Source: Escherichia coli (GTDB taxonomy: Bacteria > Pseudomonadota > Gammaproteobacteria > Enterobacterales > Enterobacteriaceae). From it: a stretch of DNA of 64,000 bases. Shown here piece after piece: positions 54,101-57,100 of this stretch. Each line of letters opens with the position of its first letter. Position 1 is the stretch's first letter. A program made the position numbers. The stretch lies in assembly GCF_030013595.1 (NCBI RefSeq), contig NZ_CP122769.1. One strand, 5' to 3'.

Positions 54101-57100
54101 TTAGAAACCGTCTAAATTACCAAATTAGTTAATCCAACAACATCTGTATCACAACCATCAATTTGTTTTTGTTGGGTCTATATCGTAGAAACAAGTGAAT
54201 AATGAATACACTCGTTAATACAGACAACCGGAAATGAATGACTACCTGATTATCTCAGCGGTATATGCTAAGCCGTTAATATTGCCATTCTCTGGTGGAA
54301 CCACTGCTAAATGAATAAACCGTTTGTCGCTTCAAACCACTTTATCAAAACCGTTAACTTGCATTAAGTCCGATACAGTTCGGCGAGCTCATCCAGCATG
54401 GGGTTACTCTTATATCCCGGTGCGGCCGTAAAAAGGTTTCGGGAAATCGCCAGCCACTCCATGATTTTGTCCGTCGCCAGCCAACGTCTGCCAAGTCGCT
54501 CGGCTGCGATGGGGACTTTATGCAAGCCAGCGAAGGGATCTACAACAAGATCTCCCGGCTCTGTCAAAAACTCAATCAGAAACGCTGCAAGCCTGGTAGG
54601 AGACGTTGCACCGTGCAGCGGAAAACCGAGCTCGCGGGCAATGGAATGGCAAAATCTCGTATCAGCGCAGCTATTGCCGTAAAACAAAGTATTCTTGGGG
54701 ATCGTTCCTTCTGTTTTATTTCCAAAGGAACCGCTTTTAAGCTGGTACGCCCCATCACCATAAAAGGTCGTGCGATTTTCACCGCCTGCTGCCTGCAATT
54801 TTAGATGCTGGTCTGAATGCGGTTGTAGTACACGTAAGTTGTTTGAACGAACCTTACTCGCATCATTGGTAAACCACAGCACAGGCTCATACGATGAGCA
54901 GAGCTGCACCCGTTGCTTACATGCCCAGTGCGTTGGCGATGGGGGCTTACTGCGATTCACCCACTGAAGCCTGTCCATGAGCTCAAGCCCCAGCTTGTCA
55001 CATAATGCCAGTGTCAGACGCTCCAGATACAGAGAACGTGAAGGCCTACCCCTATTAAAGCTATCTTGAGTGATATTCAATGCCACACTTGCGCCCGGTA
55101 CAAGCTGTTTCACGATCGGTTCGAGGATACGCAGAAGCCAGTCAATATAAGCCTGCTCGCCACGCCCCCCTCCGTGCCCGTAGTCTCTTGAATTTCGAAG
55201 GAGGTAAGGTGGCGAGGTCAGGCAAAGATGAATTTGCTCGGTGATATTGCTGAAGAAGGCATAGGCGTTTCCAAAAACCGATGCCCCAAGAGAAGTTGAG
55301 AAACCGACAACACAGAGCTTTTCCCATGACTCATGCAGGTTTGTTTTCGTCTTAGAGGCGTATCTCCAGACGCCCCGTTTTTCTGGAACGCGTTCGATGA
55401 CCCCGGCCTGACGGAGAGTCTGCTGAAACCAGCGAACCTTATGTTTGACGCCGCTGGTTCTGGTTTTATCTGACCCAAATTCTTTCAGTTCGTGCAATTC
55501 GGCATCCGACATGCCAGTTTTACGCTGCACTTCGCGATAAAGCTCGTCGTTGGTCAACGGCGATTCGGAGGCAGCGTAGATATGCGCAATTAAGTCCGTA
55601 TTAATCGTACTCATCAGCCATCCTAATGGGGATACAGTTATTATATCGGCCTGATGGTTGGAAGTGAGATTACTAAATCAGACCGATCTGGTTTGTTGAA
55701 GACTTTGCCAAATCATGCAGCACAGCTGGGCTTGCACAGAGCGAGCCGGGCTCCTTTAGCGGAGACACCTTCGCAAGTTGGATTAATCAGCCTCAAGATT
55801 CTGGAACTCAATGAGCTTTTGCTCACACTCCTCCCTGCCCCACGATCCCTGCCAGTCACAGATGTCCCGGTACTTACTTTCCAGCTTATCCATCTGTGCG
55901 AGATTAGCTGTTGCGAAGTCTGTCCATATGTCATGCCAGCAAGCGTTGTACGTAACGCCAGCTGGTGGACAATACTCCATTGCATCAGCATTAATAATTT
56001 CAACGCGAAGATCGGTTGCAAACGAGGCTGCAACGAGGTTAATAACATCCTGTTCTTTTTCGATTACCGTGACATGGGTTACATCGTCTTTCTGAAGAAT
56101 GGCGTGGAGCACCATACCAAGACCAAGACCATTAATGAGCACCCGCCCGGTGGCTCGCTCTATAAAATCCTGGCAGGTTCGGATCTCCATCGGGGTATTG
56201 GACATCACCACATCCCAGCCGTTGGACAAGCGGCGATATCTACCGGGCGGGATAAACTCATCTGTATTACCAGTACACTCGGCACGAAGGGCGAGGGTCA
56301 GCGCCTTATCTGTGGTAATTTCGAAAGTGTCCAGTTTCCAAGTTCCGGACTTGCCGTCTTTAACGGGTAAATCAGAAAAGCAGCTCTTCATCGAGGCAAC
56401 CAAAATTCCAGTAGTTTTGTTACGCTGAACCTACCACAAACCCGCTCTTAATGAAGGCATCAGGAGCGATAGCGATCTTTGAGGCATCGTTTAAAACAGC
56501 GGCATCCTGTAACAGACACCCGATATTTTTTTTAATGCCGCAGGTGTTAAAGGTAGCGTTGCAAAGTTGCAACATCTTCAGGGGCAACCTCCACGCAGCT
56601 CCTGACACTGTAGTGATTTTCGCCGTTGTAGTCATAAACCCCACCGTCTTCAAAACTCAGCTGTTCAACCTCGCCAGCACACTCGGAAATCAGTGCCGTC
56701 TGGCAAGCATTTTTCTCACAATCGCTGACGAGTATACGAACATAGCTTTTCTCATGGTCGCCGTTACGGTTCTGGATCTTTACGATAAAGTGTTTTTCAG
56801 ACATTTGTGCCTCCAGCTCAGGTTGAGGTTAATTTAGCGTTGCCCCGGTTCACCGGGGCAAGAATAAATCAACCCTTAATGAAATTGTGCCCCCAGGTGT
56901 TAGGCTTAAATGCCTGCTCTTTGATATATGTTTTCATTACCTTGCAGGTTTTTTTCAGGGCTTTGGTATTGGCATCGGTTACTGGGATAAAATGGCGAGA
57001 ATGACGGTTTTCCCGGTACTGCTTATCAGCGTTTGGGTCAATTGCTTCGCTTTGCAGGAGCCCTTCGTGCCTGCCAATTACTATTACGTAGTTCATTTCA

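What the first reader, a model, noticed from the sequence alone, without database searches (positions are those of the whole stretch)
54364..56403. Beta-class DNA methyltransferase with atypical motif I, next to a second Rossmann-like protein
The 416 aa protein has motif IV (TSPPY) N-terminal to a motif I-like segment (VVDPFAGLHKV), the beta-class order, but motif I lacks the usual glycine-rich GSG loop. No restriction endonuclease gene is adjacent, so it appears orphan. The neighbouring 206 aa ORF shows weaker class I methyltransferase-like motifs. Orphan methyltransferases on conjugative elements commonly protect incoming DNA from restriction; the degenerate motif raises the question of activity.
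Basis: partly seen in the sequence, partly recalled or inferred. Interest (0 to 1): 0.45.

Follow-up and report, generated by a model that had tools for sequence, protein, structure and literature searches.

The report
Orphan PvuII-like DNA methyltransferase, IncHI2 plasmid
This is an ordinary, already-annotated backbone gene of IncHI2 resistance plasmids: a solitary DNA methyltransferase related to M.PvuII whose "odd" cofactor motif is normal for its family, sitting next to an unrelated small methyltransferase-fold protein of unknown substrate.

Summary
Both ORFs are real: 54364-55614(-), 416 aa, and 55783-56391(-), 202 aa from the ATG. The window is IncHI2 plasmid backbone, and this stretch is ≥99% identical in about 590 plasmids.

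The 416-aa protein has an N-terminal Mrr_N winged helix joined to a β-class PF01555 methyltransferase domain. Its closest solved relative is the N4-cytosine enzyme M.PvuII (E 2e-39; TM 0.81).

The "atypical motif I" (DPFAGLHKVP) is not degeneration:
- M.PvuII itself reads FGGSNTT.
- Only 8 of 117 full-length homologues keep the second glycine.
- F361 and G363 are invariant; D359 and H334 are nearly invariant (≥90%). An acidic residue follows the next strand (D382).
- dN/dS is 0.10 between the two IncHI2 lineages.

The gene is a true orphan. No nuclease domain was found in seven flanking ORFs, no neighbour is conserved across about 75 loci, and natural IS knock-outs exist.

Target sequence, base and timing of action are untested. 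Overall this is an uncharacterised member of a known kind, of low interest.

The parts
54364..55614 (-). 416-aa orphan DNA methyltransferase (RefSeq WP_000104323.1, 'site-specific DNA-methyltransferase')
   Evidence: ORF; RefSeq annotation in identical plasmids; Pfam PF01555 and Mrr_N; M.PvuII E 2.3e-39; PADLOC Type II MTase model 1.2e-46
55363..55566 (-). N-terminal Mrr_N-type winged-helix domain (residues 17-84)
   Evidence: Pfam PF14338, 29.6 bits against a 29.5 cut-off. The same domain is precomputed for most homologues. The AF2 model shows a helix-helix-helix-β-β-helix-wing pattern in residues 6-85
54445..55233 (-). β-class N6/N4 methyltransferase catalytic domain (residues 128-390)
   Evidence: Pfam PF01555 covers profile positions 1-218 of 221; Foldseek top hit 1BOO, E 6.5e-20, target-normalised TM 0.81
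55204..55215 (-). Motif IV, S134-P-P-Y137 (catalytic loop; the serine form is typical of N4-cytosine enzymes)
   Evidence: Translation; aligned to SPPF of M.PvuII; SPPY in 104 and SPPF in 8 homologues
54511..54540 (-). Motif I, D359-P-F-A-G363-L-H-K-V-P368 (AdoMet loop, PvuII-like variant without the second glycine)
   Evidence: Translation; aligned to DIFGGSNTTG of M.PvuII; F361 and G363 invariant, D359 nearly invariant; position statistics
55783..56391 (-). 202-aa small class I SAM-methyltransferase-fold protein (WP_000833773.1, 'hypothetical'); the upstream TTG at 56403 would give 206 aa
56116..56130 (-). G88-L-G-L-G92 glycine-rich SAM loop of the 202-aa protein
   Evidence: Translation; G88, G90 and G92 invariant in 43 homologues, together with E111 and D154
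55615..55782 (-). 168-bp gap between the two genes. No consensus σ70 promoter or terminator found. It holds one CAGCTG palindrome at 55723-55728
   Evidence: The palindrome is not meaningful: 35 sites in the window, and not enriched upstream of homologues

Best explanation
The 416-aa gene encodes a functional, solitary Type II-like DNA methyltransferase of the β class, most probably making N4-methylcytosine.

Shown: an N-terminal Mrr_N winged helix is fused to a PvuII-like catalytic domain. The gene belongs to a large family carried without a restriction partner on MOBH-type conjugative plasmids (IncHI2, IncC, IncHI1B/FIB) and on other mobile elements of Proteobacteria.

Inferred mechanism, from the solved relatives:
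- AdoMet sits in the loop D359-P-F-A-G363, with H334/P339 nearby and the acidic D382 after the next strand.
- The target base is flipped into the S134-P-P-Y137 pocket and its exocyclic amine is methylated.
- The winged helix adds DNA binding, or autoregulates the gene.

Inferred role: methylating plasmid (and host) DNA so that the plasmid survives restriction systems it meets, or systems that compete for the same site.

Shown: the missing second glycine of FxGxG is a family trait, not decay.

The upstream 202-aa gene is an independent small SAM-dependent methyltransferase-fold enzyme of unknown substrate. It is common on plasmids and also found in phages. It is not a partner of the MTase.
For: Identity and fold:
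- Pfam PF01555 E 9e-22, plus Mrr_N.
- M.PvuII 1BOO E 2.3e-39 over residues 105-392.
- AF2 pLDDT 87.8; Foldseek top hit 1BOO, TM 0.81.
- PADLOC Type II MTase 1.2e-46.

Motifs:
- SPPY and DPFAGLHKVP sit in β order.
- S134, P136, F361, G363 and P339 are invariant; D359 and H334 are nearly invariant, in 44 sequences.
- The second glycine is present in only 8 of 117 homologues, and M.PvuII has N there.
- GL(H/C/F)(K/N)(V/T)P is kept in relatives of 62-86% identity.

Selection: dN/dS is 0.10 for the MTase and 0.16 for the 202-aa gene, between the two IncHI2 lineages.

Orphan status:
- No Pfam, PHROG or PADLOC nuclease hit in the flanking ORFs.
- The most frequent neighbour family occurs in only 14 of about 75 loci, and it is a DUF5131-like protein (my reading of its sequence, not a nuclease).
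- IS-disrupted copies exist in at least 8 plasmids.

Distribution: the family is in 2251 of 72,556 plasmids, 84% of them predicted conjugative. MOBH typing was seen for IncHI2, IncC and IncHI1B examples.

Anti-restriction precedent: M.EcoGIX (PMC7736820); orphan MTases are enriched on conjugative elements (PMC11541004).

202-aa protein:
- GLGLG, E111 and D154 are invariant.
- It lies within 10 kb of the MTase in only 7 of 86 loci.
Against: - No activity, target motif or methylated base has been measured for this protein or any member of its clade in the literature I could search.
- The IncHI2 subclade differs from the family consensus at two further motif I positions: L364 instead of S/T (7 of 117) and P368 instead of G (8 of 117). 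Their effect is unknown.
- The only IncHI2-host SMRT methylome I found (S. Senftenberg 775W, PMC5347186) lists only m6A motifs and no m4C. However, that plasmid's copy carries a 1-nt deletion at codon 288, so the result is uninformative.
- No consensus σ70 promoter lies upstream. The gene may be silent under laboratory conditions.
- Repeated IS knock-outs show it is dispensable for plasmid persistence.
- The gene is about 39 kb from the putative oriT, on the relaxase side. Early-entry expression is therefore not supported by its position.
Confidence: 0.72

Rival explanations
1. The protein is a catalytically dead or weakened relic. The L364/H365/P368 version of motif I no longer binds AdoMet, and the gene persists as a DNA-binding protein (through the winged helix) or as neutral baggage.
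For: L at +1 and P at +5 of motif I are rare in the family, 7 and 8 of 117. IS insertions are tolerated. No m4C motif is listed in the S. Senftenberg IncHI2 host (PMC5347186). No consensus promoter was found.
Against: dN/dS is 0.10 with no change in any motif between lineages. The same GL(H/C/F)(K/N)(V/T)P loop is conserved in relatives down to 62% identity. SPPY, D359, F361, G363, H334, P339 and D382 are all intact. The active enzyme M.PvuII also lacks the second glycine. The S. Senftenberg copy is frameshifted in the record.
Confidence: 0.13
2. The MTase and the 202-aa methyltransferase-fold protein, perhaps with the nearby DndC-like PAPS-reductase protein, form one multi-enzyme DNA-modification module.
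For: The two genes are adjacent and co-oriented, 168 bp apart, in all IncHI2 lineages. Both families also occur on one Aeromonas plasmid. DndC-like genes lie near MTase homologues in 5 loci.
Against: The 202-aa family is within 10 kb of the MTase in only 7 of 86 loci, all IncHI2-like or that one Aeromonas plasmid, where the genes are 4.6 kb apart. In the sampled Klebsiella plasmid records the two families sit at very different coordinates, though never compared within one record. The 202-aa family occurs alone in phages. No neighbour of the MTase family is conserved.
Confidence: 0.07
3. It is the modification half of a restriction-modification system whose nuclease is one of the unannotated flanking ORFs.
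For: Several flanking ORFs of 85-263 aa have no detectable family. Type II nucleases are notoriously hard to recognise by sequence.
Against: None of these ORFs travels with the MTase family elsewhere. MTase genes split by IS elements occur in at least 8 maintained plasmids, which a linked active nuclease should not allow. PADLOC found no restriction-enzyme model.
Confidence: 0.04

Closest known systems
M.PvuII (PDB 1BOO), β-class N4-cytosine DNA methyltransferase of the PvuII Type II R-M system
   Same: Closest solved relative by sequence (E 2.3e-39, residues 105-392) and by fold (TM 0.81). It has the same motif order and the S-P-P-aromatic catalytic motif. Its motif I has the same kind of variant without the second glycine (FGGSNTT against FAGLHKV). 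The H-x-x-x-x-P motif is shared, as is an acidic residue after β2.
   Different: M.PvuII has no N-terminal Mrr_N winged helix. It works with the R.PvuII and C.PvuII partners, which is established knowledge rather than something tested here. Identity is only about 26-30%, so the CAGCTG specificity cannot be transferred. Motif I residues +1 and +5 differ: L and P here, S and G in M.PvuII.
IncC (IncA/C) backbone methyltransferase WP_000098294.1 (pMS6198A) and the wider Mrr_N + PvuII-like orphan family
   Same: Same two-domain architecture and length (about 414 aa), with 50% identity. It is also carried on a MOBH/MPF_F conjugative plasmid, among co-oriented small genes and without a nuclease.
   Different: It has a different motif I loop (G-S/T-x-K-T-G type) and different neighbours (parA/korB). 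It is equally uncharacterised.
M.EcoGIX / M.BceJIII, plasmid orphan MTases acting on entering single strands (PMC7736820)
   Same: They are orphan MTases on conjugative plasmids that help the plasmid establish by blocking recipient restriction. They offer a functional analogy for why such a gene is kept.
   Different: Those enzymes make promiscuous m6A (SAY) on single strands. Nothing here shows single-strand activity, relaxed specificity or early expression. A sequence relationship was not tested.
Guanidinoacetate N-methyltransferase (GAMT, PDB 3ORH) and small-molecule or O-methyltransferases, for the 202-aa neighbour
   Different: Identity is only 12%. There is no Pfam membership. The substrate pocket was not analysed. 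The 'polyamine aminopropyltransferase' label in some annotations rests on hits of 24 bits against a 472-bit cut-off. The loop reads GLGLG, whereas spermidine synthases (from my own knowledge) have GGGDG.

Membership tests
β-class amino-DNA methyltransferases (Pfam PF01555 N6_N4_Mtase) | Profile score above the curated threshold over the whole domain | tested here: met
   78.5 bits against 26.7; profile positions 1-218 of 221, residues 128-390
β-class amino-DNA methyltransferases (Pfam PF01555 N6_N4_Mtase) | Circularly permuted order: catalytic motif IV (D/N/S-P-P-Y/F) N-terminal to AdoMet motif I | tested here: met
   SPPY at residues 134-137 and DPFAG at 359-363
β-class amino-DNA methyltransferases (Pfam PF01555 N6_N4_Mtase) | Glycine-rich AdoMet loop F-x-G-x-G | tested here: inconclusive
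   F361-A-G363-L-H365: the first Gly is present and invariant, the second is absent. The same is true of active M.PvuII and of 109 of 117 homologues, so the strict consensus is not required in this subfamily. AdoMet binding itself was not tested.
β-class amino-DNA methyltransferases (Pfam PF01555 N6_N4_Mtase) | Fold match to solved members | tested here: met
   AF2 pLDDT 87.8. Foldseek hits: 1BOO E 6.5e-20, then the rotifer N4CMT, M.BceJIV, CcrM, M.MboIIA and M.RsrI
N4-cytosine-specific MTases (M.PvuII-like) | Serine form of motif IV (S-P-P-Y/F) and nearest characterised relative being an m4C enzyme | tested here: met
   SPPY. The top sequence and fold match is M.PvuII. All 112 homologues scored carry SPPY or SPPF.
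N4-cytosine-specific MTases (M.PvuII-like) | The product is N4-methylcytosine at a defined sequence | not testable with these tools
   Needs SMRT, nanopore or LC-MS data on DNA from expressing cells. The one published IncHI2-host methylome found is uninformative (PMC5347186).
Type II restriction-modification system | A cognate restriction endonuclease gene linked to the MTase | tested here: not met
   No nuclease family in the flanking ORFs. No conserved neighbour in about 75 loci. IS-disrupted MTase copies persist in plasmids.
Leading-region anti-restriction MTases of conjugative plasmids (sensu PMC11541004; M.EcoGIX type) | Located in the first-transferred region next to oriT, on the side opposite the relaxase | tested here: inconclusive
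   The putative oriT is inferred only from the mobI/MobH position, at about 14.9-15.6 kb. The MTase lies about 39 kb away on the relaxase side. It is co-oriented with a 35-kb block of genes that point towards oriT. The direction of IncHI2 transfer was not established here.
Class I SAM-dependent methyltransferases (for the 202-aa neighbour) | Rossmann-like fold with a GxGxG loop and an acidic residue at the end of β2 | tested here: met
Spermidine synthase / polyamine aminopropyltransferase (label given to the 202-aa protein in some records) | Score above the family cut-off | tested here: not met

The most novel reading that the evidence does not exclude
Reading A: the Mrr_N + PvuII-like orphans of MOBH conjugative elements are a dedicated establishment or anti-restriction class. 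Their winged helix and altered AdoMet loop would give unusual behaviour, for example relaxed or single-strand-directed m4C methylation that is expressed only transiently and is therefore invisible in routine methylomes.

Reading B: the 202-aa GAMT-like protein, shared by about 1600 plasmids and by phages of very different hosts, is a new mobile-element modification enzyme acting on a non-DNA substrate or on a hypermodified base.
Probability: 0.12. Interest if true: 0.55.

Novelty: new member of a known kind. Interest (0 to 1): 0.2.

Why it matters
IncHI2 plasmids are major carriers of mcr-1 and of carbapenemase genes. Their backbone carries this MTase in about 1000 sequenced plasmids, and relatives sit on IncC and IncHI1B/FIB plasmids. 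Knowing its target would help in three ways: interpreting methylomes of clinical isolates, predicting which restriction systems these plasmids evade, and engineering recipients or counter-selection. As a piece of biology, though, it is an expected orphan MTase of a well-understood fold. The motif oddity that prompted the finding has an ordinary explanation.

Tried and rejected
1. Conserved two-gene module (MTase plus 202-aa protein). Rejected: they co-occur within 10 kb in only 7 of 86 loci.

2. Hidden restriction partner. No nuclease family was found in seven flanking ORFs, with Pfam run at E≤1, plus PHROGs and PADLOC on most of them. No neighbour family is conserved.

3. Using a published IncHI2-host SMRT methylome (S. 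Senftenberg 775W, PMC5347186) as a test of activity. It lists only m6A motifs, but that plasmid's MTase has a 1-nt deletion at nt 862. This could be a real frameshift or a PacBio indel; either way the result is uninformative. Other papers returned for 'IncHI2 + methylome' held no relevant data.

4. The CAGCTG (PvuII site) palindrome in the 168-bp upstream gap as a clue to specificity or autoregulation. Rejected: there are 35 sites in the window against 13 expected, and the site is present upstream of only 7 of 72 homologues.

5. Promoter and terminator scan around the two genes. No consensus σ70 promoter was found, and terminator-like sites were at the chance level.

6. Leading-region placement. 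The direction of IncHI2 transfer could not be established from the window, so no claim is made.

7. Literature searches for characterisation of this protein or of the IncC homologue found nothing specific.

Full report
**What the window is.** The 3.5 kb around the finding is ≥99% identical to about 590 plasmid records and 90-95% identical to about 400 more. The hosts are Escherichia, Salmonella, Enterobacter and Klebsiella, and about 90% of the plasmids are predicted conjugative. PLSDB types examples as IncHI2A, MOBH relaxase, MPF_F. In pTB-nb4 (NZ_CP033636.1) the two genes are annotated 'site-specific DNA-methyltransferase' (WP_000104323.1) and 'hypothetical protein' (WP_000833773.1). A Prokka-style record calls them 'Modification methylase PvuII' and 'Polyamine aminopropyltransferase'. 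So the MTase is already recognised as such in public annotation.

**Checking the observation.** The 416-aa ORF is at 54364-55614(-). The neighbour is at 55783-56403(-) from a TTG; the ATG at 56391 used by RefSeq and by the homologues gives 202 aa. SPPY translates from 55204-55215 and DPFAGLHKVP from 54511-54540. Motif IV therefore precedes motif I, which is the β-class order. Pfam gives N6_N4_Mtase E 9e-22 (78.5 bits against 26.7) over residues 128-390. It also gives an N-terminal Mrr_N winged helix at residues 17-84, just above threshold. Most homologues carry the same two precomputed domains.

**What the MTase is.**
- The best solved relative by sequence is the N4-cytosine enzyme M.PvuII (1BOO), E 2.3e-39 over residues 105-392. 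Much weaker matches follow: TTHA0409, the rotifer N4CMT and CcrM.
- An AlphaFold2 model built on 44 sequences is confident (pLDDT 87.8, pTM 0.80). Its best Foldseek match in the PDB is again 1BOO (E 6.5e-20, target-normalised TM 0.81), ahead of other β-class enzymes.
- PADLOC's best model is a Type II MTase (1.2e-46).
- The serine form of motif IV and the PvuII relationship point to N4-methylcytosine. That S-P-P-Y/F marks m4C enzymes is established family knowledge. The product itself is untested.

**Is motif I degenerate? No.**
- In the HMMER alignment, M.PvuII reads VVDIFGGSNTTG opposite VVDPFAGLHKVP. A proven enzyme therefore also lacks the second glycine of FxGxG.
- Among 117 full-length homologues, that position is V, I or N in 68 and glycine in only 8. 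All 112 with a recognisable motif IV have SPPY or SPPF.
- In a 44-sequence alignment, S134, P136, P339, F361 and G363 are invariant. D359 and H334 are nearly invariant. An acidic residue (D382, aligned to E in M.PvuII) follows the next strand.
- Specific to the IncHI2 subclade are L364 (S/T in 100 of 117) and P368 (G in 92 of 117). This loop is itself conserved as GL(H/C/F)(K/N)(V/T)P in relatives of 62-86% identity.
- Between the two IncHI2 lineages the gene has 40 nucleotide differences but only 9 amino-acid differences, none in a motif. dN/dS is 0.10.
- Together these argue for a constrained, working protein.

**Orphan status.**
- Seven flanking ORFs on both sides (85-263 aa) have no Pfam hit even at E≤1. 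Most of them, and the 393-aa ORF at 58177-59358, also have no PHROG or PADLOC hit.
- I fetched 80 loci encoding family members from one-genome-per-species contigs. They cover Gamma- and Betaproteobacteria and a few others. I then clustered all neighbours within 10 kb.
- The most frequent neighbour family occurs in only 14 of about 75 loci, and I read it from its sequence as a DUF5131/Gp37Gp68-like protein. The next families look, on my reading of their sequences, like SNF2 helicases (7), integrases (6), DndC-like proteins (5) and Dcm (5). This is typical cargo of integrative and conjugative elements.
- The MTase is split by IS5, ISKpn26, IS100 or IS903B in at least eight maintained plasmids. 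A linked active nuclease should not permit this.
- By tblastn the family is in 2251 of 72,556 plasmids, 84% of them conjugative. These include IncC (pMS6198A, 50% identity, just upstream of parA/korB) and IncFIB/IncHI1B Klebsiella plasmids (52%), both MOBH.

**The neighbour.**
- The 202-aa protein belongs to a family of at least 1882 proteins. Invariant residues include G88, G90, G92 (GLGLG, nt 56116-56130), E111 at the end of the next strand, and D154 in WHDIW.
- PHROG 15480 'methyltransferase' matches at 4.6e-34.
- Pfam and NCBIfam hits are all far below their cut-offs. The 'aminopropyltransferase' label is therefore not supported.
- The family occurs in 1597 plasmids and 31 phages, infecting Stenotrophomonas, Microcystis, Caulobacter, Gordonia and Microbacterium.
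- It lies within 10 kb of the MTase in only 7 of 86 loci. These are the IncHI2-like ones (174 bp apart) and an Aeromonas IncA/C-like plasmid (4.6 kb apart).
- It is under purifying selection, dN/dS 0.16.
- I conclude it is an independent enzyme of unknown substrate, not a subunit or partner.

**How it most likely works.**
- Shown: the domain architecture, the fold, the conserved catalytic and cofactor positions, purifying selection, the absence of a nuclease, and the distribution on mobile elements.
- Inferred: AdoMet-dependent methylation of the N4 amine of a cytosine in a short specific site. The winged helix would contribute DNA binding or autoregulation. The benefit would be protection of the plasmid from restriction, as shown for the unrelated plasmid orphan M.EcoGIX (PMC7736820) and proposed generally for orphans on conjugative elements (PMC11541004).
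- I cannot place the gene in the leading region. The relaxase module is at mobI 15553-16092, MobH 16830-19982 and TraD 19982-22066 (+). The putative oriT is in the gap at 14939-15552. The MTase lies about 39 kb away on the relaxase side, although it belongs to a 35-kb block of co-oriented genes that point towards oriT.

**Evidence that cuts the other way.**
- No member of this clade has a measured activity in the literature I could search.
- The one IncHI2-host SMRT methylome found lists only m6A motifs (PMC5347186). I checked that plasmid: its MTase has a single-base deletion at codon 288, which separates motif IV from motif I. The result says nothing either way.
- No consensus σ70 promoter lies upstream.
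- A CAGCTG palindrome in the upstream gap looked suggestive but is not. There are 35 sites in the window against 13 expected, and no enrichment upstream of homologues.

**Verdict.** The worry about a degenerate motif is answered by comparison with M.PvuII and the family. This is an uncharacterised member of a known kind on a very well-sampled plasmid backbone. Interest is low. It would rise only if experiments showed unusual specificity or timing, or an unexpected substrate for the 202-aa enzyme.

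Noticed in passing
window 48796-51180 (-): A 794-aa DndC/IbrA-like PAPS-reductase-family protein with an SGGKDS PP-loop. Hits: PADLOC DndC 4e-38; NCBIfam PRK06850 1e-37 and DndC 6e-34, both far below their cut-offs. It has a long C-terminal extension and no DndA/B/D/E genes nearby. The same family lies near MTase homologues in 5 of about 75 loci, once only 142 bp away (L063).
   Followed up: partly
window 59367-59663 (-), with 59713-60183 (-) and 58177-59358 (-): A HigB-like RelE-family toxin (Pfam 5e-18) with no recognisable HigA antitoxin. 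Its neighbours are a 156-aa CxxC zinc-finger-like protein and an ORF that RefSeq calls 'flavin reductase' but that has no Pfam, PHROG or PADLOC hit.
   Followed up: no
window ~28500-63000 (-), relative to 14939-22066: About 35 kb of mostly small, co-oriented minus-strand ORFs, those scanned having no family assignment, all pointing towards the relaxase module (mobI 15553-16092, MobH 16830-19982, TraD 19982-22066) and the putative oriT gap at 14939-15552. Whether this block enters the recipient early is unknown.
   Followed up: partly
related plasmids, e.g. NZ_CP054192.1, NZ_KX023262.1, NZ_OU015329.1, NZ_MF174859.1 (hits H1-H4, H21-H23, H36, H96): The MTase gene is interrupted by IS5, ISKpn26, IS100 or IS903B insertions in several otherwise identical IncHI2 plasmids. 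These are natural knock-outs that could be used for comparative methylomics.
   Followed up: partly
L091 16735-17984 (pSSE-ATCC-43845, NZ_CP016838.1): The copy in the 1941 isolate S. Senftenberg 775W is 100% identical except for a 1-nt deletion at gene nt 862 (codon 288), which splits the CDS. It could be a real frameshift or a PacBio indel.
   Followed up: yes
window, whole; site at 55723-55728: CAGCTG (the PvuII site) occurs 35 times in the window against about 13 expected from base composition. One copy sits in the gap upstream of the MTase. It shows no enrichment upstream of homologues.
   Followed up: yes
phage records, e.g. OR797044.1, PP438426.1, NC_048046.1 (hits H196-H220): The 202-aa GAMT-like methyltransferase-fold family also occurs in 31 phage genomes of very different hosts (Stenotrophomonas, Microcystis, Caulobacter jumbo phages, Gordonia and Microbacterium phages). 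This suggests a function useful to mobile elements in general.
   Followed up: partly
window 55654-56370 (+): A 238-aa ORF runs antisense to the 202-aa gene. It is not annotated in the RefSeq records examined and is probably a spurious shadow ORF.
   Followed up: no
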